Shown here: in pieces, positions 1,555 through 63,300 of the stretch | Position numbering within the stretch: position 1 is the stretch's first letter | How the letters are laid out: every line of letters begins with the position of its first letter | Source of the DNA: Antedon mediterranea | Taxonomy: Eukaryota; Animalia; Echinodermata | NCBI RefSeq assembly: GCF_964355755.1 | Contig: NC_092673.1 | Location: 21,883,648-21,947,647, forward strand | Length of the DNA stretch: 64,000 bases | Direction: 5' to 3' | Position numbers and translations under genes: made by a program | Notes under the pieces: model-generated | What the model was told of the DNA's origin: nothing | Database searches by the model: none | The model's input: the letters and a program-made list of their open reading frames with translations, nothing else

Positions 1555-4500
1555 ATGTCAAAGTCTCATATACTGCCCTCAAGGGCAAATCAAAGTTCTG
1601 CAGCGGACGAGCAGTATGTCAAACCGTCTTTAGAGAACAAACGAGAAGATTGGAGGAAAGCGAAAGAATTGGAAGAAGCGAGAAAAGCTGGAACTGCTCC
1701 TGCTCTTGTGGATGAAGAGGGAAAGTATGACCTTTTTTAGCTATAATATTTTATTGAATACTCTGTAAATAATAACATGATGCATGTAAGAGGTTGTATA
1801 GAGAAAAGTAAAATGATATGAGACTAACATTTTATTTGAGATATCACTTGATAATCAATGAAATATTGGTTACTTTTATTTACTTTTTCTATGGCCGTGA
1901 TTAACAACTTTATTACATCTACAAAATAACCTATTCAAAGTCTTATTTAGTTAATCTTCATTTTTCATGTTTTTTGGGGACAATACATTTGTAACTGGTG
2001 TACCTCTTCAGTACAAGACTGTTCTCCCAGAGAGCCTATTAATAAATGATTATATTACATAGCCTATGTAAATACGCGAACGTGATTGGTTGAAACTGCA
2101 TCACATGACTACCGCTGCGAGGATCGTAAATCGTATATATCCTCGAGAACGATGATATTGACTGTGTAATTTTCGCGTAATAATCGTGTCCCCTGTTATT
2201 AATCATATAAATTCTCGAGTACGATGATATTGACTGTGTAATTTTCGTGTGCAACACTCGAGTTTGCCGATAAATAAACAAAAGTCATCTACTCGATCTT
2301 GAACTCGGGTGGAATTGTCACTCCATCGCAAGACAACGTTTCATCCGCTGGGCCACGGAATTTGCTTGAAGAAAATAATCTTCTAAACTATTTAAGCTAT
2401 GCATACATAGCGCCCTCATTTGTTATAAGTCCACCCTAAATGTGATGAAACACCGTTTATGATTGGTCAATACTCACGGTAGTAACCTAGTAACTAGTAC
2501 GCGCTGAACATCCGGTGATTCGGCTCCTCGAAGATCGAGAAGACGACGAATTGTTTATTCGGCCTACCTGAATATAATATTATTATTAATAGGCTTATTG
2601 ATGGAAATTCTTCTGTTAATTTAAACGACCTAGGCCTAAGTGAATATTTTATTGCCAAGGAATCATTAATTAGTAATTATCTGTATATTATTCTTCGCAA
2701 GGTAAGGTGTCTAAGCAGTACAATACAATAAGGAGGCCTAGGCCCTAGCTAGCCTAGCTTCACCCAACCCAGCAGACTTGTTCTTGGCTATATAATGTAA
2801 CAGATATTGCCTTTTATATCGGTTAAATATAAGATTTGACATCCCCTCGAGAATGATATTAAGTTCTCGGGGAATATATATTTCCCTCAGCTGGCGCTTC
2901 GGGAAATATATATTCTCTCGAACTTAATATCATTCCCTCGGGGATGTCAAATCTTATATTTAACCTCTAAGCAGTCAATATCTGTATAATAGTAAAGTTT
3001 AACTTTCTTATTTTCAGAGATATTAATCCACATATTCCTCAGTACATATCAACAGTACCATGGTATGTTGGTGTTGATCACCCGACCTTAAAACATCAAC
3101 GTGTACAAGATGAGAAAAAGAAGGTTTTCAGTGGTATTGACCAGTGGTACAAAAAGGGTGTTAAAGAGGTAATCATAAAAAAGTATGAAAATCTAGATTT
3201 GATCCAGACAGATTAATTTATATTAGAATATTGTTTTTATGTACACAGAATGCTACTGTAGTATGAATATGGTGTAACCTAAAATGGGCATATACCTTTC
3301 TTCACTACAATTCATTACAGTATAAGGTATACTTAGCAGATAAAACTAAAGTTTAAAACTTTACATTTCAGGGATCAATAGCAACAAAATTTAGGAAAGG
3401 CGCTTGTACAAATTGTGGAGCTATTACCCACAAGAAAAAGGATTGCTTAGAGGTAGGTTATGTTACATATTGTTACCATTATAACCAAAATGTAGTGTTA
3501 AGTTAAATCTCTCTCTACATAAGATTAATTTAATCAATGTTATGTGCACAACATTTCTATAAGCTTTTATGACATGAAATGCGTTTTTAGTTTTACAAAT
3601 ATGAAGTATGTATTGATTTACTGTACAATTAGTGATGGTTCCAGATTGTTTTTTAAATGGGGTTAATGTCCTATCTTTTACATTGTGTTTTCTACAATTT
3701 ATTGGAGGCCGGCTAAGCCTGAACTTGAATCCGACAATATGTGTGTGTTTCTTAGAATTTGTACAAGTATGAATGAGCATTCCCACTTAAACTTTTACTA
3801 TGTACTGTAAAAAATTACTGTGTATATTTTGTCTCTTACAGAGACCAAGAAGAGTTGGCGCCAAATTTACAAGTAGCCAAATTGCACCCGATGAGCATGA
3901 ACAACCCAATTTGGATTTTGACTACGCTAGCAAACGTGATCGATGGAATGGCTACGACGAAGAAGACTACGATGATGTTATCAAGGAATTTGCCAAAATT
4001 GAAGAGGTATAAAAACGTAATTTTTTATATAAAGATAGAAATCATCAATCAAAACAAGTAACTGAATGTTACATATATTATTGAGGCTATATAAGACTGT
4101 TAAGGTGTGCAGAAATATGAAATTTAAAAAGTTAAAAGTTAAACCTTTTAAAGACAGCGAGCAGATTTGATTCAGTTTTTACTCCTCAGGCTCTGTCTAC
4201 ACTATTAAACGTTATGTGACAAAAATATATGATGTGCCCATATATGGACATGATGATGTCATATCACTACCATATTTGGGTATATCACTACCATATCTGT
4301 GCACATTACACTTTTGTTTGGTAGTTTAGACAGAGCTTCAGAGCAATTTTCAACATTCTAATATATGGTAATTTTTTAAGCTGGGTTGTTATGTGTTATG
4401 GCTTAATTTTTCCTTGCTAAAGGTTTAGTAATAATAGAAAATATTGTTATTTTGTCACAGGCAAAAAAAGAACTAAAAGCTGCTCAACTTGAGGATGAAA

Positions 4501-7500
4501 TGATGATTGAGAAACAAACCAAAGAAAAAGAAAAGGTGAATATATTTAGAATTAAACACCAATGAATGTTAAGGCAGGTGCGCCGTTTACCATACCTAAA
4601 GAGCCAACAATAACGGCATGGGTTCGAGGCCAACTCGCTACTAGTTCGGTGGTGGAACAAGTTTTCTCGAATAAGGACTATAAACCGTAGGTCCAGTGTA
4701 CACAGTTATAACCTGTGTGCATGTTAAAGAACCCAATTCATCATTCGAGACGAGTAGGGGGTACTCCTGGTGAACTGGTTCACAAAAAATCCCTGTATCC
4801 GGGGGATTACCACCTATCTGATAGGACAGTGATTAATTTAGTATTGATAATCCTTGGCCACTTGTGCCTAAAAGGCATAAACTAAAAAAAAATAGAAAAG
4901 AATTGTAATTATATTAAAATAATCCATGAAAGAGACTATACACTATTGAAATAAGTCTGATAATGTGTACCTGAGTGCTAAGTCTCCCCTCCCGCTAAGG
5001 TGAAATTGCTCCTGATTGTTTTGAATACTGTACGAGAAAAAAAAATACTTGCACTGATGAAAGGCTAGTGTTGCCTGAAAGCTCTGCTACTTTTTCTGAC
5101 TGTTTTACTTATAGTTTTGCTTTAGCTTTTTGCTTATCTTATTTTCTATTTCCATTGATACACCCACAGCATTTCATTATTTTCAGTAATTGCCTTTGGA
5201 TATATTTATGCACTTATGAAGGGCTAGTGTTGCCCGAAAGCTCTGATAACTTTTCTGGCTGTTTACTTTATCGTTTTGATTTAGCTTTTCGCTTTTTTTT
5301 TTTTTTTTTGTATCGAGATCCAGCCACTGATACCCACAGCATTGTCAATTTTTTCAGTAATTTGCTTTTGGATTTATATATAGTGTATATATATATATCC
5401 AATCTGCAGACAGTACTGTTTCGATCTTAGTAGATCTCGTCAGTGCAGCTCAGGTTTCGAAATGAAATAAGCCGCAGAACTGGCACAATATATAGGCTGA
5501 GCCAGGTATGCGGGACATGGTACACTGATTATGAACACAAAGAGTGCACAAGTTCAACGAGCGTGCTTTGCAAAATGCTAATAGTATTCACAACAAAATG
5601 CACCGTTTCGAAATGAAGAGTGCTCTACAAAACAACATACTATATATGTATATATCAGAAAGTAGAGGAGCATAATATCCAATCTGCAGACAGTACTGTT
5701 TCGATCTTATTAGATCTCGTCAGTTCAGCTCAGGTTTCGAAATGAAATGTACCGCAGAACTGGCACAATATATAGGCTGAGCCAGGTATGCGGGACATGG
5801 TACACTGATTATGAACACCTATATATAAATATATGTGACAAATGTGTTTTTTTTTATTGAAATAAGCCTGATAGGATATAATGACATACAAACTGTTTCT
5901 GAAACTAATTTTATTTTGGTTAAAAGGGAGACAGTGACAATAGTGAAGATGAAGACAAGTATGCAGATGATTTTGACATGCCTGGTACAAACTTTGACAG
6001 CAAAAGGTTAGTTAATTCAAGTTACAGATTTCATTTTGACATGCCTGGTACAAACTTTGACCGCAAAAGGTTAGTTAATTCAAGTTACAGATTTCATTTT
6101 GACATGCCTGGTACAAACTTTGACAGCAAAAGGTTAGTTAATTCAAGTTACAGATTTCATTTTGACATGCCTGGTACAAACTTTGACAGCAAAAGGTTAG
6201 TTAATTCAAGTTACAGATTTCATTTTGACATGCCTGGTACAAACTTTGACAGCAAAAGGTTAGATAATTCAAGTTACAGATTTCATTTTGACATGCCTGG
6301 TACAAACTTTGACAGCAAAAGGTTAGTTAATTCAAGTTACAGATGTCACTTTGACATGCCTGGTACAAACTTTGACAGCAAAAGGTTAGTTAATTCAAGT
6401 TACAGATTTCATTTTGACATGCCTGGTACAAACTTTGACAGCAAAAAGTTAGTTAATTCAAGTTACAGATTTCACTTTGACATGCCTGGTACAAACTTTG
6501 ACAGCAAAAGGTTAGTTAATTCAAGTTACAGATTTCACTTTGACATGCCTGGTACAAACTTTGACAGCAAAAGGTTAGTTAATTCAAGTTACAGATTTCA
6601 TTTTGACATGCCTGGTACAAACTTTGACAGCAAAAGGTTAGTTAATTCAAGTTACAGATTTCATTTTGACATGCCTGGTACAAACTTTGACAGCAAAAGG
6701 TTAGTTAATTCAAGTTACAGATTTCATTTTGACATGCCTGGTACAAACTTTGACAGCAAAAGGTTAGATAATTCAAGTTACAGATTTCATTTTGACATGC
6801 CTGGTACAAACTTTGACAGCAAAAGGTTAGTTAATTCAAGTTACAGATTTCATTTTCACATGCCTGGTACAAACTTTGACAGCAAAAGGTTAGTTAATTC
6901 AAGTTACAGATTTCACTTTGACATGCCTGGTACAAACTTTGACAGCAAAAGGTTAGTTAATTCAAGTTACAGATTTCATTTTCACATGCCTGGTACAAAC
7001 TTTGACAGCAAAAGGTTAGTTAATTCAAGTTACAGATTTCATTTTCACATGCCTGGTACAAACTTTGACAGCAAAAGGTTAGTTAATTCAAGTTACAGAT
7101 TTCATTTTCACATGCCTGGTACAAACTTTGACAGCAAAAGGTTAGTTAATTCCAGTTACAGATTTCATTTTGACATGCCTGGTACAAACTTTGACAGCAA
7201 AAGGTTAGTTAATTCAAGTTACAGATTTCATTTTGACATGCCTGGTACAAACTTTGACAGCAAAAGGTTAGTTAATTCAAGTTACAGATTTCATTTTGAC
7301 ATGCCTGGTACAAACTTTGACAGCAAAAGGTTAGTTAATTCAAGTTACAGATTTCATTTTGACATGCCTGGTACAAACTTTGACAGCAAAAGGTTAGTTA
7401 ATTCAAGTTACAGATTTCATTTTGACATGCCTGGTACAAACTTTAACAGCAAAAGGTTAGTTAATTCAAGTTACAGATTTCATTTTGACATGCCTGGTAC

Positions 7501-10500
7501 AAACTTTGACAGCAAAAGGTTAGTTAATTCAAGTTACAGATTTCATTTTCACATGCCTGGTACAAACTTTGAAAGCAAAAGGTTAGTTAATTCAAGTTAC
7601 AGATTTCATTTTGACATGCCTGGTACAAACTTTGACAGCAAAAGGTTAGTTAATTCAAGTTACAGATTTCATTTTGACATGCCTGGTACAAACTTTGACA
7701 GCAAAAGGTTAGTTAATTCAAGTTACAGATTTCATTTTGACATGCCTGGTACAAACTTTGACAGCAAAAGGTTAGTTAATTCAAGTTACAGATTTCATTT
7801 TCACATGCCTGGTACAAACTTTGACAGCAAAAGGTTAGTTAATTCAAGTTACAGATTTCACTTTGACATGCCTGGTACAAACTCTAATAACCAAAACATG
7901 TACAGTAAATGATTCATCTTTTTCCTTTGGCTCTAGTTGAAGGCGTTTGTTGATAATAACAGCATTTTATTTATAATTTTAGACGTATTACAGTGAGAAA
8001 TCTGCGTATTCGTGAAGACACAGCCAAATATTTGTACAATTTAAACCCAAACTCTGCGTACTACGATCCGAAAACGAGATCAATGCGTGGAAATCCATTC
8101 AAAGACACCGGCAGGCATCCTAATGAGTAAGTCTAGCATTTATTCTGTTCTTACAATTTAGTTTCTTTTTGTTCATATCCTTACAGTTAAACTTTCTTTC
8201 AAGTTGTTCATATTGTAAATTGTTTTAACCATTGCTACTATCAATCCTAGGCTAACCAGATAACTTGTAGGTCTTGTACTCATCGGTCATTGTTAATTCA
8301 AAATCGTAATGAAGAATATACTGTTTAGGTTCACCCTCTATAAATAAAGTGAAATTAAAAAAAAAATAAATAAACTCAAAATAATATTTAATCATGTTGT
8401 GTTATATTTGATACAAGAAGGTGCAGATCATTATCAATAGAAAAACAATGTTAATTTCCTTGTTGTATGTTTCAGTTTAAAATATGCTGGTGAGAATTTT
8501 GTTCGCTCAAGCGGAGATACTGGAAAAATGGCCAATGCTCAATGTAAGTTCGCTTAGTGTGTCAAAGCTCTGTCTACACTATCAAACTAATTTGACAAAA
8601 AAAGTGTGATGTGCCCAAATATGGTACTAATATGCCCAATAAGGTAGCGATATGACATCATCATGTCCATATATGAGCACATCACATTTTTTTTGTCACA
8701 TAAAGTATGATAGTGTAGACAGAGCTTAAAGCACTTTTACAGAATACAAAAATAAATAAAAACTTATTTTGAGGCTTACAGTAGTAGCTAGTGAGAAAAT
8801 CATGATAATGAGTTCGGGCTAGGATTTGAACCAAACACATTGGGTTTGGTAACTTTAAAGATGTATTGTCCCGCTGAAAAAATAATTCTTAACAAAATTT
8901 TGTTGAATATTCAATTTTAATGTAACATAATAGTTATCCACTTTGACCAAAAATTGTATAAAAAAAAAAGTATTTAAATGAAAACACTGTAATTTAAAGC
9001 AAAAAATGGCCAAATTGGCTGCCAGCCAGTGGGTTTTTGTTGAATTGAACCATTTAATTTGTCAATTTATAGGTGAAAACATTTTTTTTCCTTTATTTTT
9101 TGTATGTAAGTAATTAACTTTATTAAAACTACAAAATAACATATTCAAAGTCTGATTTAATTAATTTTCATTTTTCATGTTTTTGGGGGACAATATATCT
9201 TTAAGAAAGCAGCCTATAGATTCCTATAAGTAACGAATATTCCTTGTGGGTATTTTGCCAAGCTACTATTTTTCCCCACTACAAATAAACTGAGGGCTTA
9301 TAGCAGTGTCAGTAGGGTTATTACACTATATTCATCTGCTTTGTATATTTCAGTATTTGCATGGGAGGCAACAGATAAGGGTACTGATGTACATTTACAA
9401 GCAGACCCGACCAAATTGGAATTGCTCAACCGTGAATTTGAAGTAAAGGCCGACGATTTTAAGAAAGGTCAAAAGAATAGCATCTTAGATAAGGTATATT
9501 ATTTTCATTTTTTGAGATTACTACATTGTAGTATCGTTTGTATATTTAATTGTTCAGACATAACAATTTACATGTGTAATGGTCGTGTGTAGTGTAAATT
9601 TGCTGTTTCAAAAACCCAACTCGTGAGGTGGATTTTTTAATTACACCTTAAATCGCAAGCTGATTAACCACAAGATAAGGAGCAATTTGACCATACTAGT
9701 GTAAAAAGAAGAATGAAATATTACCTTGGTGGATAATTTGAACGAACGATCACTGATTTATCTCTAAAGGTTACACATGTAATTGATTTTACGTGCGAAC
9801 ACAGCCTATGTCTCTGTTGTTGAATAATTCACAAACATAAGAATAATAGAATAAGAAAAGAAAGTTAATTGATTAAAATAATATTTTATTTTCGACACGA
9901 ATGAATAGTCACCAGCACCAGAAATGAGATTCTACCTCGCTTCATATTAGCAAGTTTTTGTGGTGGAAGGAAGAAAACGATAATTAAATCAAAAGATTAA
10001 TCTGCGTGTTTGTAGAAGCCCAGTGTACATCATCTTCATTATCTGCACTCTATTTGGTAGATTTGATATTTGACCTTCGTCTATATTTAATATTACTTAT
10101 TTTTTTACAGTATGGAGGACAAGAACACTTGGAAGCTCCTCCACAGCAACTGCTCATGGCACAGACGGTAAGTTCAATAACCACAGTGCTTCAGATTAAA
10201 TATTTAGCTGTCGGTCTAATTCTAAACTATCTTGAAAGTAGATAATTAAATTACTCTTAAATTTAAAATGTTAATTAACATTGTACACTACAGACTGTTT
10301 AATTAAAATGCTTCAGATTAGATATTTAGCTGTCGGTCTACTTCTAAATTAACCTGTGGACATGTGTTTATATATTGAAAGTATAATAACTAAATAGATG
10401 ATTCAAGTTAAAATTTCAACATTATATTGTACACTGCAGACTGTTTTATTAAATTGCTTCAGATTAGATATTTAGCTGTCGGTCTAATTCTAAACTATCC

Positions 10501-13500
10501 TGTAGACATATATATATTGAGAGTAGATAATGAAAAGGACTCAAATTTAAAATGTTAACATTATATTGTAGACTACACAATCATATGCTATACTTTAAAT
10601 TTCCAAATTGTCTTGAAGTACTGTGATTTGTTTTCTTGTATTTATAGGAAGATTATGTAGAATATTCAAGGCAGGGTAAAGTGATCAAAGGTCAGGAAAA
10701 AGCTGTGGCAAAATCAAAGTATGAAGAAGATGTGTATTTTAGTAATCATACAGTGAGTATAAACAAAAGAAATCTTCTATCATATCAAGTTCAATATTGA
10801 ATATCGAAACGTGGCAGGCTACTGGGCGCTTGACCTTTGACAAGGTCGCCTAAAATGTATAATTTAAAACTATGGTACTTAGTATTGTATATCTAAATTA
10901 ACTGTTTTTCTAACAAATATCAAAAGTCATGTCTCGGGTTCATTCTATGCTACATCAGAAATGTAATGAATGGATGGCTAGTTGGTGACAAGAACGTTAG
11001 TTGATCATACCCAGTACCGTTTTGATTTTATGATCATTCACATTAACAGCATAGTCATCCTAGTGGCAATGACAGCAATAGCTGCTATTATACTGAATAC
11101 ACTATCCAGAGGATAACTGTATGTGTAAAGCTCTGTCTACACTATCAAACTTTATATGACAAAAATATGTGATGTGCCCATATATGGACATGATTATGTC
11201 ATACCACTACCATATTTGAGCATATCACAACCATATTTGGGCATATCACAACCATATTTGGGCATATCACTAACATATTTAGGCACAGCATACTTTTTTT
11301 GTCAGACTAATTTGATAGTGTAGACAGAGCTTATCACTATAACAGTGCATACTTGGCTATGTTGATATATTCTTAAGTAAAAACAGCTGTAAATCTATTG
11401 ACAATTCTATGAGGCTGAATTACTTACTGTATACATTTTAAACCGAAATTGAATGGTAATGGTAAAACATCATCAAATTTTGTATTTAGTTTATATAGTA
11501 TAAGTTTTTTGTTTTGGTGTAAATATTGTATAAATTATTGAGTGAGATTAAACATTATTTATGGGATATACTCGGTTTGTATAATAATAATATTGTATAA
11601 ATTATTGAGTGAGATTACTCGGTTTGTATAATAATAATATTTTTTTAATTGAATATTACACTACAGACTGTGTGGGGTTCATTTTGGCATGAGGGCCGAT
11701 GGGGCTATCACTGTTGTCATTCATTTGTCAAGATGTCGTACTGCACAGGAGAAGTTGGTAAAACTAGCTTGGCGTCAAGTGGCGCCCTCTCTATGATGGG
11801 CCAGGACAGGTTAGAACAGATTGACGATGGCAAACAGAAATCATTAGTTGAAGTAAGATCACATTTATTTATTTTTTTTTATTAGTATTTATGTTCAACG
11901 ATTTATATCTTGCGGTAACATCATGTCATAAATCTTAAACTTTGTTTAACCAAACAATACATACAAGTATTATAGCAAGCATTGTAATACATGGAAATGT
12001 GTTTCATCTGTTGATATAAATGATGAAATTGATAAAATACTAATATATATTAAAGATGTATTGTGCCCCTGAAAAAATAATGTTTAATGTCATTTTTATA
12101 TTTCACATAATATTTATCCACAAAAAATGAATCGGAAAACATTTTTATTTTATATACCTGCAAAAAATGTAATTTAAAGCAAAAAATTGTCAAATTGGCT
12201 GCAAGCCAATGGGTTTTTGGTTAAATTTGACTATTTATTTTGTCATTTTACATTATTTTGGTTCGTTTTTTTTCTCTGAAAGTGATTAACTTTATCAAAA
12301 CTACAAAAGAACCTATTCAAAGTCTGATTTAATTATTAATCTTTATTTTTGGGGGACAATACATCTTTAATGTAATTTATCCATTAAATAATAAGAAGAT
12401 AGCTAAATGAGTTTTACCTTTTGTTGAAAATGATATATGTAATAATCAATAATAATTGTTTTTTGTTGTTGCTGTATTAGAGCATTTTTCAAAGCTTATT
12501 TATTAAATGGAGTTGTCATGTGATTGGTCTCACATTTGTTACTAGGAAACGGAAATGGTTTTGTACGTCATGATGAGCAAGTTATATAAAAAATCGTTAA
12601 ACTTTATGTAGAATGTGACGTTTATGGCAAATTATAAAATGATGGATTGATATGTTAAAAGTGGATGACCATAATACAAATATTGAGTATTTCTTTGTGA
12701 TAATTTCGAAGGATATTTAGATGTCAACTCATGGTAAAACTAAGAGTTTCTAATCTAACATTAAAATACAAATTGCCAATGCTAATTTTAATTTGAAATT
12801 AATTATCCTAAATGTTTATCATAGCAGTATTTTATTTCCCTTTCTATCTACTCTTTAATAATCTTATTAAAATGGCTTATAATTTTATGTACTTGGTGGT
12901 TCCTTTACAGCTTCAGCAAAAGATTATCTGTATACAGTGTGTAGAATAATAGGAATGACAAATAAAATATTTATACAGTAATATACACTAAAAGAAATGT
13001 TATGGGATATACTGACTGTATAATACAGTATAGCCCATTTCCACTCGTATCAATTATTATTTGTATAATACAGTATTATTATTATTATAAATGATACGAG
13101 TGGAAATATCAATATTATCTACATTCCAAGAATACAACTCCATAATTATTTGTTTTATAAGACATCTATTTTACTCAATGGTAAGAATACATTATAATAA
13201 ATTATATTGTTTACAATTCAAATTGCAGCAACACAAAGAAAAAATTCACACAGAAAAGACAGAAAGAAAAAGAAAGAAAAAGAAGAAACATAGCAAAAAG
13301 ACGGATGTAAAATCAAGTGAAGATGAAAGTAGTGAAGACGAAGAAGAAATAAAAAAGAAAAAATTAAAGAAGGTAAAAAGAATAGAACCATTTTATTTTG
13401 GAAAAGTAGGTTGGGAAAAATTCTCAAATGTTCTGTTTGTTCATAAAACGAAAAAAAATTTTTGTTTTTGTTTTGCATGGGTTTTAAATATATGTATATT

Positions 13501-26566: not shown

Positions 26567-26715
26567 TACGATTCTATTTTAACGTACGATGCTGATGGAT
26601 TAAAATCCTCAGTTTATTGTGAATTGGATAGATTTGTTTTTGTTGTTTCTATGGAGCTAAGTTGCACGTAAGAATCATAACAAAAGATTAATTAATCAAC
26701 AAATACTTGAATATA

Positions 26716-26867
26716 AGCTCTGTACATCAAACTTTATGTGGAAAAAAAATGTGATGTACCATATATGAACATGATGATGTCATATCACTACCATATTTAA
26801 GCATATCACTACCATATTTGGGTACATCACACTTTTGTCATACTAGTTTGATAGTGTAGACAGAATT
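26716..26867. mobile_element. MITE family A copy
   Basis: Both TIRs (slightly deleted) and internal repeats. Confidence 0.8.
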
Positions 26868-27446
26868 TAGGCTCTTATTTAATTTCTGGAAAATTTCCAC
26901 GATGCTGTGTGGTGGTTCGACATTTTCCCGAAGACAAGTTTGCCAAATATTAGTTTGTTCGCAAAAACGAGAGTTGTAGACATGTTTAATAATGCGGATG
27001 TCTTATCTAATAATACTATTATTTCATCAAGTCACGCTGTAACCAAGGTGAAAATTGAAAATAAATAAAAAATACAAAAGCATCCAAATTGCATAAAGAA
27101 CCCGGATCTCATAAAAATAATCATTAATTATTTCACTAACAAAGTAAAAATGTATCACTGTGACAAAAATAAATTTAGAAAATGTACGGTAGTTCTCCGT
27201 AGAAAGTGTGCCTACAAATTGTTCTACAAGCCACTATGGATCAATAGCGAGAACTCATGCCTATATAGGATAGTCCTAGACTTAGGACCCATATTAAGGG
27301 AAACATTCGGGACCCGGAATAAAGCCTCTTATTTAAAAGATGTTTACCCTGAATAGGGTCGTCGTAAGAATAAACAAATAATTATGATTTCCACTCTTTC
27401 GGTTCACAGGACGGTCACTTAATAATATAATAAGTGTGTCCCTTAA

Positions 27447-32387: not shown

Positions 32388-33445
32388 TTAAACTTGTAAT
32401 TTTTTAAATTTATTGGAACATTTTCCTGGAGATGGGGCATAATACAGCTTAATATTATTCCATGGCTTAGCATTTTTATCCATCCAATTACATATTTCAA
32501 CTCCATGATGGTGGCACACAATTTGAATCAATGTGACCACATCAGCCTCAGCATTGTGAACATTTTCTGGTAGTTTTCCAAATGTTCTTTTATATATTTC
32601 TGCCAATTTATAAGACACCTTTCTCTTCTTGGAAGGACTGTGTTCATTGGACGTTGACGACATAACTGGCAATGTATTGTTGTTACTTGTGGGTGAAGAA
32701 CTGGAAGGTTTGCTCAAAATATCTGGTTTTCTGGTCTGGCTTCTAATTTATCATCAATGTCTTGAAATGCTATCAAGGAATCCACACAGAGTACGTCACA
32801 CGGCAGCGAACAATCAATGTAATTCAACTCAGTTTTAAGTAATGGGAAATCAAATCGTTCCCCATTGTGTGCGACTAGACATACAGGTTTTGTCTGTCTA
32901 TTAAGGAAGGCGTTGATACAATCTACAAGATTACTGTCAAAGCCTTTTTTCTCATTCTCCAGAAGAATCGAGTTATCTAGACCGGTCATATCACCTGAAT
33001 GTATTTGCTTGTTAGGGTATAAACACAGTGTCATCTTATCAACCACCCTCGGGATGACAGGAGGACTTGATGTGCTACTTGTTGAACCATTAATGCTTGA
33101 TCTGTGAACAGCTATCAAGCAAATCTCAGTAATTTTTGGTCTTTCACACGGGAGTAATGCAGATGACTCTAAATCCAAAAATACAAACGACTTAATTACA
33201 TTTACATCTCGTTCGATATCAAGCTGTTGCTTACTGGTACTAGCCCTGCTACACGATTTTTCGCTAGTAGGCATCGGCCGACAAGAGTAGGAGCTTTCAT
33301 CGCCGCCAGACCCGGCGTCGTCGTTCGAACTATCATCAATTGTTAATGCCCCTTCTACTACTAGGCCTAGCATCCGACGAGATCTAGGTGGTGGACTACC
33401 TAGGCCTAGAGAGTGAGACGCAGATTTATCTTTAATACCAAGCAT
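32388..33445 (-). pseudogene. TREX1: Intronless TREX1/TREX2-like DEDDh 3'-5' exonuclease with a -1 frameshift (pseudogene, null allele or assembly error)
   Basis: ORF 33445-32714 carries ExoI FVFLDLES, PRVVDKMTLC, ExoII CLVAHNGERFDFPLL and CVDSL. ORF 32717-32388 carries SYKLAEIY and ExoIII HNAEADVVTL. The frames overlap between ~32745 and 32714; one extra A in GAAAAC (32727-32730) would join them. Confidence 0.8.
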
Positions 33446-34896
33446 AGCGGGATCGTAACACTTAAATGTAAAGTCAGTCCTTAATTATAGGCAAAACATT
33501 AAATAGAATACGCCACTATCATCTGCTAGGCCCAGGGCGTAATAACGGTAGTCGAGTTTCCTCTCTTCTTTCTTTGAGTGAGTGAGTGAGCGAGTCGAGT
33601 CGAGTAAGTTGGTATTTTCCGCTTGATTGCACACACAAAAAACATGTCCTGGTGGTCCGTCCCCCCCCCCCCCCCTGGCGGCCTATTTAAGAAACGCCTA
33701 ACAGCGGTAACCACAACAAACAAACAAAGATGAGATTTGAGTTGGTTGTGTAAAATAAAATGCATTTTTGGAAAATTTCAGTAAATCTAAACAAGAAATA
33801 CTTCTTACAAAAAACGTCGCTTGGTTGTTGACGTAACAGTTTTAAAGATATTGACCTTAGCAATAATACTAAGTGACAGAAATCGAGTTAGTGGTCTAAA
33901 ATTGGCTTTAATATTATTTAGACATCATTTTTATTTAAATTATTTATTAATAAGCACATCATCCTTTACAGATTTATTTTTTCGCGCCGCGGCTCTAGCC
34001 AGCTATGTCCCAGGAGGACACATTCATTAATAAGCTGTTTCATAGCGGTAGCTTTAGTATCTAAGGCTGACAGTTTTGTGAATTTGGAAACTCGACTATA
34101 ATTTATAGGTAGCTGCTGGACCCAAAAAACGTCCGGGAGAAGAGAGTCTATATGAAAGCCTTTGCTGATAATACATATTATTGAGATGTAGACGGAAATC
34201 TGTAAAATCTTGTTTAATAAAATAACTTCGTTTTTGCTGTCAACCAGGCCGGTATTATAATAAGTCACTGTCAAATAATCATTCGATAATGGTCAAAACT
34301 TTATTTTGGCTCTGTCAACATAGGCCTAAAGGGAAGTATTTACAATGACTTTCTTTTTTATGACTGTCAATCTAGGTCAATGTTATAATAATACGCCGTC
34401 AGATATTAAATCATTGAAACAGTCCTGGTAAATTTTTGTTTGGTTATCAGATGCCGTGGGGTGGGGGGGGGGGGGGTAGGTCTAATCAATTATCGTCAGA
34501 AGGTGAACAATCAGTCTAGGTAGCAGCAGCAGATTATTAGGAACGCCTGCTCCATTAATTAATCCAGAAAAAGAAAAAGGTTTGTACATTATCTATTTGT
34601 TTATTAGCCTTCTCCTAGCACAATTATATTTTCTTTAAAAAAAGGTTTTATAAGTGGTGTCAACATTTATGATAGTAATGTCACAGTTCTGTGTCTGGAC
34701 GCAAGTTCATAGACCTACTAGTTATATTATTCATATTAACTGATACTTACTCTTCATTTACCGTAAAGTTCAGTTTTAATGAAATATATAATATAAATTG
34801 GCTTCGTAACAATTAATTAGTGTTGAAAAGGTTAGTTTTTTGGTGATAGGTGAAAATGGCATGTAACTTCGTAATCAATTTATTTTTTTTGTATAA

Positions 34897-36712: not shown

Positions 36713-36741
36713 AAGAAAACATTTTTAAAATATAATCCTTA

Positions 36742-36893
36742 AGCTCTGTCTATACTATCAAACTAAATATGATGTGCCCATATAATATAGACATGACGAT
36801 GTCATATCACTACGATATTCGGGCATATCACTACCATATTTGGGCACATCACACCTTTTTTGTTAAACTTGTTGGGACAGTGTAGACACAGAA
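36742..36893. mobile_element. MITE family A copy
   Basis: TTA|AGCTCTGTCTATACTATCAAAC start and internal repeats. Confidence 0.8.
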
Positions 36894-41000: not shown

Positions 41001-44000
41001 CTCTCCCCGACGAGAGGTAAACATTAGTTTTATTTTTGTTTTTTTTTCTACAGAAGTGAATAACTTTATTAAAACTGCAAAATGGCCTATTTAAAGTCTG
41101 ATTTTATTAATCTTCATTTTTCGTGTTTTGGGGACAATACATCTTTAAATAGGGTCAAATAACTTCTCTCGATCTAATTTAATCTAATTGATCATGTCAA
41201 GACATCACTTTTAAAACTTTTACAGGGTTGCTGGAAATTCTGCATATATTCTTGGGACATTAGCAGAACATCATGTTGGACAGACACGAGTATTGGCGCT
41301 CATCTATGGCCAACATGAACACAGCATCCTTGTTGATCTCTGTAACATGCTAGAATATGATGATTCTGAGTCCGTGATGAATGCAGCTGGTACCCTAGGC
41401 ACATTGGTAAGAAGGATTGAGATCATGATAAAAAGCGGGGCAGGGTTGGCATTTATCAATATTTGCTAATACTTTTGCTTAAGCTGAAATATTTAACTTA
41501 CGAACTTACAGTAAGCTTATTTATCAAGCAGAAAAATTGTCTTAAAAAAATGTTTACTTGGCATGTGTGAAAAATGGAACACTAGAGGGCAGAAAATTTT
41601 GTCTTAAGACGAAAGATCTTTGCTTACGTGTATACATTGGCTTTTTCTATTAGGGATGGCGGCGCTATAACGTTTTATCTTCACATTTTCACTCCCAACA
41701 AGAGAGGGTTCATTCTGGTTACTATGCTTTTTAAGATAGAGAAATAACACAAAAGTCAGAAATACATGAAAATCATTATCATATTAATCAAGGATTTAAG
41801 GCAAAGTTATAAAATTTGTTATGCTAAGCAAGTTTGATCAATCCGGCCCCTGGCAATGTTTGAAGTATTGTTGTATGTAAAAATTAAGCTAAATAAATTG
41901 CTAATAATAATTATAAATATTTTTATTATTTTAAATTTTATCTAATTCAATTTTAATTATTTGATAATGGTGAGCAATCAGACTTGTTGGTTATTTAGAA
42001 ATGAAAACAAATTCACCAAGTGCCACCGCAGCATTGGCTCTTGCGTGTAGTAAAACTATTAACATTATGATTATCACTGATCATAATCACTGTTGTTTAT
42101 AGCAACTATGGAATGTATATGATTACTTGATCTATAGTGTTTATTGACTTCAATGATTGTATCTGTTGACAAGTTACTAAAATTGTGGTAATTTGGTAGT
42201 TAATATTGCACAATATTTATTTAACCTTATTTTAAGTCAGAAATTTGTTCTGATAAAATTTAACAGTAGTATTACAGGTGATAAAAATATCAGAATAATA
42301 CTTTAATGATGTGCTTGAATAATATTAAGCTACTGTACCTATCCTATTTAGGTCCATAAGGCTCTGTCTATGTTATTAAAGTAGTTTGACAAAAAAAGTT
42401 TGATGTGCCTAAATATGGTAGTGATATGCCCAAATATGGTAGTGATATGACATCATCATGTCCATATATGGGTACATCACAATTGTTTGTAACATAAAAG
42501 TTTGGTAGTGCAGACAAAGCTTAAGGCTGCACATTTTCTTTGTCTCCAGTGAACACAGTCTTTGGCCAAAACTTTGCATTGTTCCAATATTCCCATCCCA
42601 ATGCCAATTCTCTCCCTTTCCACCGTCTATCCTAATATCAAGTGATCTTCCATCCACTGCTAAATGTGCAATTTGTTCAGTGTTTGATAGAAATATCCCT
42701 GATATTGTATTGCATACATTTACAGTTCAGGCTCAAATCTACCTATATTGCATACTTGATACCTATTGTTCAATCGACTTATAGCACCGGTACTATCCAA
42801 TGTTCAAAAGCACTTGATAAAGTTATACAGGAAATGTTTCTGTGTACAATTGTGTTTTAAGACGTAATTTGAAGATATTGATGTTTTGTGATGTCTTTAT
42901 GTTTACTAAAAAGCATTCTTATTGGTTTGGCCATTCTTAATAAAGATGATCATTTTTTATTTAAAGTTTTAACATTTTTCTTTTATATTTAATTTTCATT
43001 TCGATGATGATACACAGGCAGAGACAGCAGAGGGCCGAGCCTGGATGCTATCGGAACAATGCATGGACACAATGATTCACAGAGTAATGGCGTTACTAAC
43101 ATCTGAAAGCATGTGGACCGCAAGCAATGCTGCCCTCGTGTTGGCCAGGTTGTCTATTTCAGAAGAAGGTTGCCATCATTTACTTCATCATCAACAATCA
43201 CATCAACTTCTCACTCGGCTAATACAATCACTCGGTGTTGATGAAGCTGGTAAGTATACAGATCATGTATTTTTGCATTCGTTAATACACATCGGTATCA
43301 AAAAATATAATACAATATCAAGTGCAACCAAAAAGTTGAATTATGCCACTCATTTGAAATTGGTAAATGACAGAGTGTTTGGTGTGTTAATAAAAAATAT
43401 TGGTAAGATATGGTATGGGACTCTTGCCAAATCTGCTCGTGGTACTGTATGATCAAAATTTCCATATTTCTTCTCATTGCGAGTTGCATGTGGTTTAGGA
43501 AACCACTACCATGTTTCGGCACATCACACTTTTTTTTTCAAACTAGTTTGATAGTGTAGACAGAGCTTAAGACTGCTGAATGATTGTGTTTCATGTTGGT
43601 TCTTTGTGTTTTTCCATCCTGTTGTGCTTTAAATTCAATTTCTATTTGGTATACTAGGTACAGGCATGAATGCTGCATTCGCAGTTGGAAGAATTTGTGA
43701 CACAGAGGAAGGACGAGAGAAACTCATAAAACACCAAGATATTACAAAAATGGTAAATAGTTCTATCAGAGAAACTGATGCCTTATACTGTAACTGGGCA
43801 CATGACCTAGTGTGGTGGTAGGGTCATTTCACCCGTTTGTGTCAAGATCTATGTTTCTGAAAACGATTTTCTAGTCCATTTCGTGCTGTTATCTATCAAT
43901 TTTTGTTTTGGCCTTATGAATAGATTTAAAGACTCAAATTAACACCATGTTTAATATTAAATTTTAAACTTTTAGATTTCTGTTTTAACTGATATGTTGT

Positions 44001-47000
44001 CCAGTAAAGATCCTGGTTGCAGTAAGAACGCTTGTTTCGCAATAAGCTGCCTTGCTGGCAACGAGGAAGGGCATGCGCTACTGCTCAATCATCTGCGATG
44101 TGATATCATGCTGAGGCGTCTTGCGGAACAACTACACTCAACAGACCAAGAGACATCCTGGTTTGCTGCTATGTAAGTTACTATTAAAAAACATTGTTAA
44201 AGTAGTATAGAGTGGAGCTGTAGCTTGGTGATTTAGATGTTCAGCTACCGATTACAGGGTCCTGTGTTCAAATCCTGTCAGATTCTTTCTCATGACAGAA
44301 CAACTCCGCTCCCAAAGACTTTGTTTTGTTTGTAGAGCATCTTGTGTATACTATATGTTTGTCTTTGTGATTATTTAAGCCACTTTATTAGCTAATAGCC
44401 TTAACGGCTACATGTGGCTATCTGGCCCCTCCAGGAGACTTGTCTCCAACTGTCATAAAATAATTTAACAAAATAAAATAAACTTATATATCTCAGAAAT
44501 ACTGCCTAAGGTGGACACATCAGACTCATCCTACATACATACAAGATGAGTCCATTATATTGATTCCACTTTGAAAATGTAGACATACTTGATCATCAAC
44601 AATCACTTTTGTGAATAATCAAAGCATGTGTGTGCCGACAGCTTCCCCCAGTTGATATAAAGGGCACTTCCTTCACATGCTTTCACCTAAACCCCCACCG
44701 AAAATTCTTGCTGGAAAAGTCAAACGGTTGCATTTGAAAAAACAAAGGCTGTGTAGAATACTGTTACTTTCTGATGCTGCCAAGTACTAATTTTAAACTC
44801 GTCTATTCCTAAATCAGGAGAATCCTGACAATTGCCTACTTTGTAGGATTCCCACCTTAACTCTTTGACAACCCTGATAACAGTTTAGAAACCTGAGCAA
44901 TATACGTTTAAAGGTTCTGTAGAATCTCTATACTTGTTCTGAATTCATTCTGATATTTTCTGTTCTTTCAGGACCCTTCGAACACTTGCAAGTAAAAAGA
45001 AAGGTTGTTTAGTACTACGTGATCATGTAGTCATTGTACCTGCATTACAGGTATAGAGTCTATTTTTAGACAGCATTTGTTTTTTCTTGGTAGCTTGAAT
45101 AGCTCAATGCAGTATCACTCAATCAGGGATGTAATCTATGTAGCCATAGCCTGTACTTAGGGGAAGGATACTACAGAAACAAAATCTTACAACTTAAGTG
45201 TTTAAAAAAAGTACAGTATATAAATTCACACTCTACAAAGTTGCAATAGAACTCAAAACAAAGCTTTAATTTCAGTCAACTAAAGAATTCAGTATAGACT
45301 TCAATCGTCTTCACAATTACTCTTATAATCATAAAAATAATAAATAAAAAATAAAAAAAACTTGTTTTCTATAATGGGTAGAAAGACAAAATATTGACAT
45401 TGATGTTAGTAAACCAACCAGTGGTAGAAGACCTGGTTACATTTTGGAAAATCTTTTATTTCTTTACTTCAACAATATTTTTTTATAGGAAATTAATGGA
45501 GCAAGTGGAATTTCCAACGACCTTCAGGATGAAGTTGTTTTGACATTAGAGCTTTTGAAGAAACTTGACAAACCAAATCCACCAGTGCTGGAGGTCAAAG
45601 GTCCCAGGGAGCTTATGGTGACCTGGGATATAACAACACTCGAGAGTGGACTTGACATCATTTATATGCTTTACTTAGGTAAAAATAAAGTTTTACCTGA
45701 AACCTACCTGCATACAATCTTTAAAAGATGTATTGTCCCCCAAAAACCAAAGATTACCGTAATAAAATCGGACTTTGATTATATTATTTTGTAGTTTTAA
45801 TAAAGTTGATTACTTTCGTAGAAAAAAAAACAGAAAAAATATATGTTTTTACTTATAAAATGACAAAATGAATGGTTAAATTCAACGAAAATCCCATAGG
45901 CTGGCAACCAATTTGACCATTTTTTGCTTTAAATTATAGTTTTTTAGGTAAATACTTTTTTTTTTGGATCCAATTTTTGGTCAAAGTGAATAACTATCAT
46001 GTGACATTAAAATGGCATATTCAACAAAAATTGTTTTTATAATGATTTTTTCAGGGTGACAATACATCTTTAATTGCAGGAATATTTTTGTTGTCTTTCT
46101 TGTGAAACAAATGGTCAATATGACTATAACCTACCTCTATTTAGGGACCAGGACAATTTTTAGTGTGCCAAATAAATCCATATTAACTTTAAAAATTATT
46201 AAAAACATTTTTGACAGATAATACGGTGCTCTACAAAGGTGCTGAGACCAGCTTTTTGGCAACCAACCTCAAACCAAATACTTTATATAATCTACAATTG
46301 CAATTGAAGACAGAAGGTGATGAAAGTCAGCTGAGTGACCCTTTAGAGGTCACCATGGATCAATGTGGTAAAAAGTTCATTTTTATAACTGATGCCTTAG
46401 TCTCCCCCAACCTTAAGCTCTGTCTACACTATCAAACTTTATGTGAACTAAAATGTAATGAGCCCATTTATGGACATGTTGATGTCATATCACTACCATA
46501 TTTGGGCATATCACTACCATATTTGGGCACATTACACTTTTTTTTAAAAACTAGTTTGATAGTATAGACAGCATTAAAGATAAAATCACATCCAGTTTAT
46601 TTATACAAAATGCTAACAAGCAATTTTTATATTTTTTAAAGAAATATTATCATTCAATTTATATAAAATAAAAGGTCAACTTGTCTAAATTTTCTAGCTC
46701 TAGTGATCTAATCTAATAATTAAGTATTTTCTGAATTCATATTTTAAAATTAATAGTGAACTCGAGTGCCATATTTTGTACCATAGACTTTGTTTATGTA
46801 GAGCATCTTGTGTATATGTTTGTAGGGTAAACAGGATTGCCACCTTTGAGAAGGATAGTGAATGAATTAGCAATTTGCCTAAATATACAACCAAACAAAA
46901 CAAAAAATGATCACATGTTGTTGGTGGGCTTATACCTGAGACCAGGTTTATACTGGCTGGGCTTATACCCGCATCAGTATGGTACAATAAAATATTTGTA

Positions 47001-60322: not shown

Positions 60323-63300
60323 TCAGATTACAATCACTAAACGTCCCAGAGTGGGCTTATTACTTATGACGTCTTCATGAGCCTGGCTAGCCTCTTTCAT
60401 TGTGTACTCCTTGCCAATAACCGGCTTAATCCAACCCTGCTCCATGCCTGGCTGTATTGCTGCATTTACTTGCTGCTTTTCCTCCTATAAACAAATAATT
60501 ATTTTATGCTGGAATTATTTTTATGAGGTCATTTCGTCCCAATTTCAAGTTTCCACAACCTACTAGCCATCTGGGCTTAAAAGGAAGGTACTTTGGATAG
60601 CCCAGAGCTCTTTTTACTTGCCATTGTACGCCGAGATAGTACCAACTGTGATTTTTATAAATTCAATAGTAATACCAATGCATGGTTGGCAGGATATTCT
60701 AGGTTTTACATACCTGTTCCTCCCCCTAATACCCATTTCATAATATATAACCTCATTTCATAGCCTACCTCAGCGCCTGGTGGAAACAGTACTCCTACTA
60801 TACTCGTCTCCTTTACCATTGTCAAACGTGGATTTATCTCAATGTTTCCTCGATTGCCTACAACCTTCAAAACAATCAATGCAATGTTTTACTCAAAATT
60901 TCAATACTTAGGAACCCTAAGTGGCCCTCCAACGCTGGATGCCTTGAGCATTTTTTGTTATCCCTTTTCTACACATTTTAATGCCTGTTTTTTTCTCTGG
61001 GCTCTGCTCAGGGGCCCTAATAAACTCCCAGGCCCCTGTATTTAGCCAGTGAGCGCTCATAGCCGTTATGCCACTGTAAGACAGCTGTTTACACCATATA
61101 TGGAAAACAAATATATATACAATACCATGAAAGCCCCAGTGGTCTAATGGTTAGGACATCTGCATATCAAGCAGGCGGTCCGAGTTCGAATCTCGGTTGG
61201 GGCGACTTTTTCTCATTCTCACAGATTTCCTCATCTTTATCGTTTCAAATTATATTAAATTTCAGTATATCACCGGGTGGTTTCGAATTAATGTTCATTG
61301 CCTGCTGTGTTTATATATATATATATATATCCAATCTGCAGACAGTACTGTTTCGATCTTATTAGATCTCGTCAGTGCAGCTCGGGTTTCGAAATAAAAT
61401 GTACCGCAGAACTGGCACAATATATAGGCTGAGCCAGGTATGCGGGACATGGTACACTGATTATGAACACAAAGAGTGCACAAGCTCAATGAGCGTGCTT
61501 TGCAAAATGCTAATAGCATTCACAACAAAATTGCACCGTTTTGAACTGAAGAATGCTCTACAATATAGCAGAAAGTAGAGGAGCGTAATATCTATAGATG
61601 ACATTATGATGGAAAACATAGAGTAAAGGTAAGTTCACTTTTCATCTCATCAGTTTTCTGTAATAAAGTGGTAGGTTGTTTAGCTAACATGGACCCATAA
61701 CACCAGGGTACAGTAGACAGTGGGAAAGTCTGTAGAGTAAAGATGAAAAATGACAGATCTTGAGACAGGTATCAACTTACAGCAACAGTGCCTCCACGAG
61801 CCAGTAATTCCAAGTCTTTTTGTAGATTTACATTAGCCAACATCTCTATAATAATATCAACACCCAATCCACCTGTAGCTTCCTGTAGTTGCAAAGAAAA
61901 TACAAACAATGTGATTAACTGTTTTCCTTTATTCCATTTTTCATTTCAATTTGTTTTTCTATTTGACTGTTATAAAATACTAATAAACAACCAAAGGTTG
62001 AAATAAAGAGTTTACAATAATTCAGAATGCCTAAGATTTTTATTTGGCATCTCAGCATGAACATAAAAAACATAAATATAGAATAAATATAAAAGCAATA
62101 AAATACCATAAAAACAAATAAAAAAGGTGGGGTAAATGAAGTCAAAATGGATGTACAGGACAACTTGCTGTAGTTGCATTAGTAATTATAGTTTTGAAAA
62201 AGAAGAAATAGAAGGGTCATATAAGCTATTTAGCTTGTTAAAATATCCGACCCATTAACATCAAGCATTAGTATGCTGCTAAATGCCAGTAACAATCTAA
62301 CGATATTTATTGGGAAATATATCCTGTTTAAATAGACGGAGACACGCTTCTTCCCTGATTCATTTTGTGTTTATAACAGCTTGTATTCAAGTAGTGGAAT
62401 CGTAATTACATAGCCATAACATCGGCAAGGGTTCGAGGCTACCTCGCTCCATGGTTCTGGCGGTAAAACAATTCTTCTCGGATATAAGGACTATAAACAG
62501 AAGGTCCAGTGCACACAGCTCAAGAACCTAGTATATCTTTCGAGTTGAGTAGGGGGTTACCGCGGTGTACTAGTACATAACTGGGCGCTTTGGGTCAATT
62601 CAACCATGTACTCAAATAAGGTTCTGCACAGTATAGAAAGATGAGGTGATGTACAGTGGAGTCTCTCAATACAGACTACCCTTGGTACGATCGACTTCTG
62701 AAATTTGGTTTGCAGAATATATTTCCCAAGCCTACATAGGCCAAGTTAGGGCTACCTTTTCAGGCCCTTACAAAGTTTTATGAACTTAAGTTATGTTGAA
62801 TAAATGTGTGTAAGTAGTTAAATAAAAATATAACAATATATACCATAATTTTATCTGTGTATCCAGGTTCCTTGTGATTAAATACATTCCTTGCCCCAAT
62901 ATTGCTGACAAGTTTTAAGCCCTCTGAACTCCCTGCTGTTCCATACACGGTCATTCCGTAAGCTTTTGCTAGTTGGACACTTGCAATACCAACCTACACA
63001 TTCAAAAAGTTTAAAGTAATATTATTATTCTTTAATTTTTATTTCTATTTTATACATCAAGGCTGTAGCGAGAGGTTAAAAACAAGGCAAATCTGCTTTA
63101 AATATAATTATTATTATATAATATGATGATCTGTGCTGGGGAATTTGGTTGGGTAGTGAAAATTTCTCATCTGCCTCATGCTGACTACTGCCCTGTGCAT
63201 TCATATAATAACCATAATTTATTATTAATTTAATAAATATACAGTTAAACAATATCTGATGCAGCGTTCAAACATAACAATAGTCTATGTTTTCAAGGTT

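What the first reader, a model, noticed from the sequence alone, without database searches (positions are those of the whole stretch)
5397..5818. Tandem hammerhead retrozyme predicted to release a 280-nt self-cleaved RNA antisense to SLU7
Seen: two type I hammerheads on the minus strand (5404-5448, 5684-5728) with canonical CUGACGA/GAAA core, GUC triplet and a fully palindromic helix III (ACAGUACUGU), exactly 280 nt apart. A third near-identical monomer lies 56 kb away. Differences between the ribozyme copies fall in the helix II loop or helix I, not the core. Established: tandem type I hammerheads with palindromic helix III typify metazoan non-LTR retrozymes and Penelope-like element termini, can fold as dimers and can yield small circular RNAs. 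Inference: a young, probably unannotated family that would produce a 280-nt monomer (5688-5409) able to circularise.
Basis: partly seen in the sequence, partly recalled or inferred. Interest (0 to 1): 0.85.

Follow-up and report, generated by a model that had tools for sequence, protein, structure and literature searches.

The report
Feather star hammerhead retrozyme copy
This is one and a half copies of a 280-base protein-free repeat in an intron of a feather star gene, each ending in a hammerhead motif predicted to cut its own RNA; it is a new member of a known kind of animal mobile element that likely spreads through small RNA circles, though this copy faces away from its host gene and may never be expressed.

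Summary
Two type I hammerheads lie 280 nt apart on the minus strand of a SLU7 intron, and a third unit sits at 61592-61331. The host is the crinoid Antedon mediterranea. The element is a 1.5-unit copy of a dispersed family seen in public runs of several organisms. It has a fixed 3' end about 10 nt past the cleavage site, variable 5' truncation and TA-rich flanks. This fits metazoan non-LTR retrozymes, which are already described, and not Penelope minimal hammerheads. Release of a circle from this locus is doubtful. The element is antisense to SLU7, no RNA evidence was available, and the upstream ribozyme carries a near-private helix I mismatch, although a double-hammerhead fold could bypass it. 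The third copy is in sense orientation in an intron of a quinone-oxidoreductase-like gene, with an intact ribozyme. A coral-associated family with near-identical helices I and III also ends in microsatellites (48 of 69 terminal copies). Part of the non-ribozyme body is shared with families from other animals, a possible clue to the mobilising Penelope partner.

The parts
5399..5818 (-). 1.5-unit retrozyme insertion: a 5'-truncated half unit plus one full unit, ending 10 nt past the second cleavage site (5398-5395 could be element or TA flank)
5684..5728 (-). Upstream type I hammerhead (A); predicted cut 5689/5688; helix I mismatch at 5725
   Evidence: nearly all laid contig depth in 4 of 4 runs has the pairing base at 5725
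5404..5448 (-). Downstream type I hammerhead (B), all 12 helix pairs intact; predicted cut 5409/5408
5409..5688 (-). 280-nt unit between the two predicted cleavage sites, 40% GC, more structured than shuffles
   Evidence: linear z -2.80, 1 of 200 shuffles as stable; circular z -2.4, 3 of 200
5617..5625 (-). First GAGCACTCT box, shared with related families from other animals
5541..5549 (-). Second box (GTGCACTCT), end of a roughly 45-nt block shared with loci L027 and L113
5375..5398 (-). (TA)n-rich 3' flank or tail
5819..5835 (-). TA-rich 5' flank; no target-site duplication can be resolved
61331..61592 (-). Third copy: one unit, same 3' end, followed by (TA)n; lacks a 20-nt segment
61336..61380 (-). 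Hammerhead C, intact; predicted cut 61341/61340
4536..5926 (+). Host SLU7 intron (element antisense); boundaries read by eye
60865..61780 (-). Host intron of a quinone oxidoreductase (zeta-crystallin)-like gene holding the third copy in sense orientation; boundaries read by eye

Best explanation
The stretch is a 5'-truncated, 1.5-unit copy of a dispersed 280-nt protein-free repeat family of the feather star, each unit ending in a type I hammerhead predicted to self-cleave, and it was likely written into a TA-rich site by target-primed reverse transcription, probably by a Penelope-like element's enzyme, from an RNA whose cleavage junction was intact, most likely a ligated circle. Shown: the anatomy, the fixed 3' end, the variable 5' ends, the TA flanks and the multi-copy family. 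Inferred from known retrozymes: read-through transcription of some tandem locus, cleavage at two successive hammerheads, ligation by a host RtcB-type ligase, and more-than-unit reverse transcription. This particular copy is probably a passive insertion. It is antisense to SLU7, so it cannot cut SLU7 pre-mRNA, and I put its own production of a circle in vivo at about 0.2. If transcribed, it could still release the unit: in a double-hammerhead fold the intact core B would cut site A, and B could then cut as a monomer.
For: The motif is far above chance. Helices I and II covary across 10 hand-picked related motifs: 7 of 12 pairs change on both sides, 0 of 500 shuffles as high; helix III was fixed by the search pattern. 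The family is multi-copy: 295, 253, 127 and 5 contigs laid on the third copy in runs X2, X4, X15 and X16. Within the ribozyme the only listed variant is the freely variable core position 7 (61371), against 17 listed variant sites upstream; this is weak on its own (Fisher p 0.13). In run X15 coverage falls almost wholly on the ribozyme. Other copies leave the element at the same 3' point into AT-rich sequence (19 contigs in X4 and 9 in X9 at 5675-5676), while 5' loose ends are scattered. A linear cleaved monomer would end at GUC, whereas both insertions here run 10 nt past it. A coral-associated family with the same helices I and III forms 241-246-nt tandems. Of its 69 terminal motifs, 48 run into a microsatellite 4-16 nt after the cut, against 379 of 5000 random positions, and its 5' ends are spread over the unit (47 copies). 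Neptune and Naiad Penelope-like elements favour microsatellites (PMC8557442, passages), and a 2026 preprint links vertebrate retrozymes to Penelope terminal repeats (10.64898/2026.07.22.740005).
Against: No cleavage, RNA or circle was observed here. Ribozyme A's active fold is +1.1 kcal/mol against -5.6 for B and C. All active folds lie above a competing minimum-energy fold, 10-20 kcal/mol higher in the 441-nt transcript, though the same competing pairing occurs in the related families. The two halves differ at 5 of 144 sites, so they are either aged or came from a mixed multimer, not a fresh single-circle copy. An uncleaved multimer explains the ends as well as a circle does. Only 1 of 9 Xenopus dimer elements cleaved in vitro in the 2026 preprint. 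No Penelope-like element was found in the window, and the genome could not be searched. The microsatellite count is lenient (two copies of a 4-nt unit counted) and its loci are not independent.
Confidence: 0.8

Rival explanations
1. The copies are 5'-truncated termini (pseudo-LTRs) of an autonomous Penelope-like element, and the 1.5-mer is the usual partial tandem. No independent small circle exists.
For: Fixed 3' end, microsatellite flanks, 5' truncation and partial tandems are Penelope traits (PMC8557442, passages). Xenopus retrozymes match Penelope terminal repeats. Some fly, rotifer and shrimp Penelope hammerheads have a small palindromic helix III (PMC4209133).
Against: The ribozyme is canonical (5-bp helix I, 4-5-bp helix II, no extra base before helix II, helix III present), unlike the minimal type defined in PMC4209133. 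The unit closes head-to-tail on itself: the third copy starts with the sequence that follows the cleavage site in the tandem. No shared loose end pointing to a longer element was among the rows shown (most rows were not shown). In L067 a Penelope-like element ends in its own minimal-hammerhead-like motif and a microsatellite, separate from the neighbouring canonical tandem.
Confidence: 0.1
2. A Pol III-transcribed SINE-like element with an internal hammerhead and a (TA)n tail, copied from linear uncleaved transcripts by a LINE enzyme, as suggested for tRNA-containing schistosome repeats.
For: An A-box-like site (5504-5493) and a B-box-like site 42 nt later lie just upstream of the ribozyme (box consensus recalled). 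A 131-133-nt head-to-tail variant keeps just this part plus the ribozyme (one contig each in X2 and X4).
Against: Such a pair occurs in 83 of 2000 shuffles, in 19 of 456 window tiles, and also on the opposite strand. My pattern missed the window's own tRNA-like gene. The unit holds three T4 runs that would tend to stop Pol III.
Confidence: 0.07
3. A local tandem duplication of a dead repeat, with no RNA step in forming the 1.5-mer and no ribozyme activity left.
For: The halves differ at 5 of 144 sites. Ribozyme A is damaged. The locus is antisense and borders a 63-nt minisatellite.
Against: The internal junction matches the start of the distant third copy, so the head-to-tail order is a family trait. 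Cores are intact in all three copies.
Confidence: 0.03

Closest known systems
Metazoan non-LTR retrozymes (Acropora millepora, Mytilus galloprovincialis, axolotl; Cervera and de la Pena 2020, PMC7229834, parts 1-4 of 6 read, supplement not readable)
   Same: Type I hammerhead in each unit of a short tandem repeat of 170-400 nt, GC under 45-50%, no ORF, structured unit, size variants differing by about 20 nt.
   Different: Echinoderm host. Expression and circles untested. No target-site duplication resolvable. The fixed 3' end with microsatellite flanks and the shared body boxes are not described in the text I read; a review says the repeats show no conserved motif pointing to a partner (PMC7761336, passage).
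Coral-associated 241-246-nt hammerhead tandems in metagenome loci (L031, L046, L067, L081 and others; 88 motifs in 84 loci)
   Same: Same helix I and helix III sequence, GAUAU about 10 nt after the cut at internal junctions, microsatellite tails, 5' truncation, two GAGCACTCT boxes.
   Different: Different helix II. Direct body similarity to the crinoid unit is not significant for 7 of 8 loci tested. Whether this is the published Acropora family is unverified; only L007 was placed, by a neighbouring gene whose named relatives are stony corals.
Penelope-like element pseudo-LTR hammerheads (PMC4209133, parts 1-2 of 4 read)
   Same: Type I topology, palindromic helix III region, partial tandems, microsatellite-associated ends.
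   Different: Those are mostly minimal ribozymes with long helix II and an extra unpaired base, flanking an RT/GIY-YIG ORF; none of that is seen here.
Intronic hammerheads of amniotes (Rfam Hammerhead_HH9, RF02275)
   Same: Best Rfam model match; the third copy is intronic and in sense orientation.
   Different: Below the gathering score. Here a mobile multi-copy repeat, not a conserved single-copy motif (the HH9 description is recalled).

Membership tests
Metazoan non-LTR retrozyme | Canonical type I hammerhead in each repeat unit | tested here: met
   ribozyme A has one helix I mismatch
Metazoan non-LTR retrozyme | Head-to-tail units of about 150-400 nt, GC under 50% | tested here: met
   280 nt, 40% GC; 1.5 units here
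Metazoan non-LTR retrozyme | No protein-coding capacity, no LTRs | tested here: met
   only short stop-to-stop frames overlap the element; no terminal repeats other than the unit itself
Metazoan non-LTR retrozyme | Dispersed multi-copy family | tested here: met
   two loci in 64 kb; hundreds of variant contigs and many distinct flanks in public runs; no copy number obtained
Metazoan non-LTR retrozyme | Highly self-paired unit RNA | tested here: met
   z -2.80 linear, -2.4 circular; modest
Metazoan non-LTR retrozyme | Self-cleavage in vitro | not testable with these tools
   folding energies only
Metazoan non-LTR retrozyme | Expressed as linear and circular unit-length RNA | not testable with these tools
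   only contigs were available; no run on record as RNA
Metazoan non-LTR retrozyme | Target-site duplication (optional in the description) | tested here: inconclusive
   both insertions sit in TA-rich sequence
Penelope-like element terminus | Minimal hammerhead (long helix II, extra base before helix II, little or no helix III) | tested here: not met
Penelope-like element terminus | Contiguous with an RT plus GIY-YIG ORF | tested here: inconclusive
   none in the window by tblastn with the L067 proteins; genome not available
Pol III SINE | Internal A and B boxes and no internal T runs | tested here: inconclusive
   box-like pair at about 4% chance level; three T4 runs

The most novel reading that the evidence does not exclude
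Crinoid and coral retrozymes belong to one lineage that shares, outside the ribozyme, two GAGCACTCT boxes and a GAUAU priming site about 10 nt after the ligated junction. These would be the cis signals by which a microsatellite-targeting (Neptune-type) Penelope reverse transcriptase recognises the RNA circle and primes on (TA)n DNA, sometimes reiterating the element's last bases as telomerase does. This would give animal retrozymes a defined partner and a direct test.
Probability: 0.2. Interest if true: 0.65.

Novelty: new member of a known kind. Interest (0 to 1): 0.3.

Why it matters
As it stands, it extends a known class of ribozyme-bearing retroelements to crinoids. My searches found no echinoderm report, but supplements and older genome surveys were not seen. 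The more useful by-products are testable leads on an open question, namely which autonomous element mobilises animal retrozymes and how it primes: a fixed 3' end with microsatellite tails in two phyla, and partly shared body sequence. The sense-oriented intact hammerhead in a quinone-oxidoreductase-like intron is a natural test of whether a pre-mRNA tolerates a fresh intronic ribozyme.

Tried and rejected
No whole genome is held, so there is no copy number or partner search. Sequencing runs: no RNA holder was listed. Summed contig depths are not used as copy numbers. No contig bridged an empty site, so insertion polymorphism is unknown. The exact crinoid-type ribozyme pattern gave 0 hits in metagenome contigs and 0 in viral contigs. 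The looser scan gave 119 loci from 28 of 64 parts of the collection. Of 131 motifs in them, 82 in 79 loci had helices I and II of at least 3 pairs; the rest were not used. Pfam scan of 53 of 55 long ORFs near those motifs (the two from L002 left out): RT domains in L043, L061 and L067, GIY-YIG only in L067. One locus is anecdotal. The idea that copies stop after exactly one round of a circle was rejected: only 4 of 47 coral-type copies start within the first 11 nt. The idea that the shared boxes are essential is weakened by the 131-133-nt variant that lacks them. The Pol III promoter is inconclusive. The bacterial promoter scan was irrelevant. A paper search for the helix III sequence returned only miR-101-type papers among the 20 listed. 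One search matched 5,805 papers and none of the 40 listed held 'retrozyme', so it is a weak negative. Earlier-finding look-ups by sequence and by words were empty.

Full report
Observation. On the minus strand there are two hammerhead motifs at 5728-5684 (A) and 5448-5404 (B), with predicted cuts at 5689/5688 and 5409/5408, 280 nt apart. A third (C) lies at 61380-61336. A generic pattern finds exactly these 3 in 64 kb against a shuffle mean of 0.02. Rfam's HH9 model matches all three below its gathering score.

Host and setting. A single-exon exonuclease ORF in the window is 100% identical to an Antedon mediterranea protein, so the host is a crinoid. SLU7 runs on the plus strand. The element sits antisense in the intron at about 4536-5926, roughly 108 nt from the acceptor. 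Copy C lies in an intron (about 61780-60865) of a minus-strand quinone-oxidoreductase-like gene (Pfam ADH_zinc_N in three of four exons tested; best PDB match quinone oxidoreductase, E 3e-12). C is therefore in sense orientation and would be transcribed with that pre-mRNA. It has one ribozyme, so it would be cut once and would not release a unit.

Anatomy. The insertion is 1.5 units, from 5818 to 5399. Copy C is one unit that begins about 9 nt after the cleavage site and ends 10 nt after the next, then (TA)n. Over the shared 144 nt, A and B differ at 5 sites, A and C at 3, and B and C at 6. Helix I has 5 pairs, helix II 4-5, and helix III 3 pairs with a GUAC loop, or 10 pairs between two copies. 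This is the canonical invertebrate type and not the minimal Penelope type of PMC4209133. A has a mismatch at the second pair of helix I (5725). At that position nearly all laid depth in 4 of 4 runs carries the pairing base (20, 43, 43 and 2 contigs), so the change is close to private to this locus. Its isolated active fold is +1.1 kcal/mol against -5.6 for B and C. In the whole transcript the double-hammerhead fold (-113.1) is more stable than two monomers (-106.3), both above the minimum-energy fold (-126.5). In the double fold, site A is served by B's intact helix I strand, so release of the unit is not excluded. These energies ignore tertiary contacts, and the same competing pairing exists in related families.

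Family. Twenty of 22 listed runs hold part of the stretch, none on record as RNA. On copy C, 295, 253, 127 and 5 contigs were laid from runs of organisms A, B, D and E; D shares almost only the ribozyme. Inside the ribozyme the only listed variant is the free core position 7, with 17 listed upstream (p 0.13). Other copies leave the element at the same 3' point into AT-rich DNA (19 contigs in X4, 9 in X9, most rows not shown), and 5' ends scatter. A 131-133-nt head-to-tail variant appears in one contig each of X2 and X4.

Relatives. A looser scan of metagenome contigs gave 119 loci. One family (88 motifs in 84 loci) has the same helices I and III and forms 241-246-nt tandems. A gene beside one copy has stony-coral named relatives at 77-86% identity. 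Nineteen motifs run on into a next unit. Of the other 69, 48 run into a microsatellite within 4-16 nt of the cut (27 TA, 14 a repeat of the element's own last four bases), against 379 of 5000 random positions. The criterion is lenient and the loci are not independent. Its 5' ends are spread along the unit. A second family (L027, L066, L087, L113, L118; host unknown) resembles the crinoid unit beyond the ribozyme. L113 scores 67 and L027 51-55, with 0 of 500 shuffles as high, and 0 and 2 of 3000 random stretches reach 67 and 51. The other three are truncated or weak. L027 in turn shares a 33-nt block with 4 of 5 coral-type loci (at most 2 of 1000 shuffles). Direct crinoid-to-coral body similarity reached significance in only 1 of 8 loci, so the cross-phylum link is transitive and modest. 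Across 10 chosen motifs, helices I and II covary. In L067 a Penelope-like element (RT, CxxC linker, GIY-YIG) ends in a microsatellite next to a coral-type tandem, with its own minimal-hammerhead-like motif. This is one anecdote, from another animal.

Mechanism. Copies that extend past the cleavage site, and a 1.5-mer with two intact junctions, require a template whose junction is intact: a ligated circle or an uncleaved multimer. Fixed 3' ends, variable 5' ends and TA-rich flanks fit target-primed reverse transcription. Published work shows that such units in coral, mussel and axolotl self-cleave, accumulate as circles and are ligated by RtcB in vitro, and proposes Penelope-like elements as partners (PMC7229834). 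A 2026 preprint adds co-occurrence and terminal-repeat homology in vertebrates, and found cleavage in only 1 of 9 dimers tested. I infer the same cycle for this family (0.8). Production of a circle from this antisense, partly damaged locus is much less likely (about 0.2). Rivals are a Penelope terminus (0.1), a Pol III SINE-like element (0.07; box-like pair at about 4% chance, three T4 runs) and a dead local duplication (0.03).

Novelty. This is a new member of a known kind. Searches gave no echinoderm retrozyme report by listing. The supplement of PMC7229834 could not be read, and the preprint's supplements were not seen; these, or older surveys outside the library, may list echinoderm hammerheads. 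Papers seen: PMC7229834 parts 1-4 of 6; PMC4209133 parts 1-2 of 4; the preprint parts 1-3 of 5 plus a term search; passages only of PMC7761336, PMC8557442 and PMC4918200.

Noticed in passing
window 61331-61592 (-), in intron 61780-60865: Third copy is in sense orientation in an intron of a quinone-oxidoreductase-like gene with an intact hammerhead, predicted to cut the pre-mRNA once at 61341/61340.
   Followed up: partly
window 5970-7883: 63-nt minisatellite, 30.4 copies at 98% match, whose unit repeats the end of a SLU7 exon and the adjacent intron start. It forms a 662-codon open frame (5924-7912) and may offer many candidate 5' splice sites.
   Followed up: no
window 5047-5283: Two diverged copies of another repeat next to the retrozyme, with far greater summed contig depth than the retrozyme in all four runs laid; not identified.
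   Followed up: no
runs X2 and X4, joints at window 5798 to 5676 and 61450: A 131-133-nt head-to-tail variant of the unit that keeps the A/B-box-like region and the ribozyme; one contig per run; shorter than the 170-400 nt range in PMC7229834.
   Followed up: partly
L067:1230-3588 (-): Frameshifted Penelope-like element (RT, CxxC linker, GIY-YIG) ending in (GATA)n/(TA)n with a minimal-hammerhead-like motif near 1350-1310, beside a 246-nt canonical hammerhead tandem.
   Followed up: partly
L002:3001-3367 (-), also L096: 47-nt tandem repeat in which each unit carries a hammerhead core and the same palindromic helix III but no helix I.
   Followed up: no
window 61133-61204 (+): tRNA-like gene, called Asp with an unusual ATC anticodon, in the same intron as the third copy on the opposite strand; possibly a pseudogene.
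   Followed up: no
window 4190-4345, 11130-11330, 26711-26872, 36733-36888, 42364-42526, 46416-46580 and others: Dispersed repeat with an internal 21-nt subrepeat, present in both orientations at more than ten places.
   Followed up: no
window 32714-33484 (-): TREX2-like exonuclease ORF, identical to an Antedon mediterranea protein; used to place the host.
   Followed up: yes
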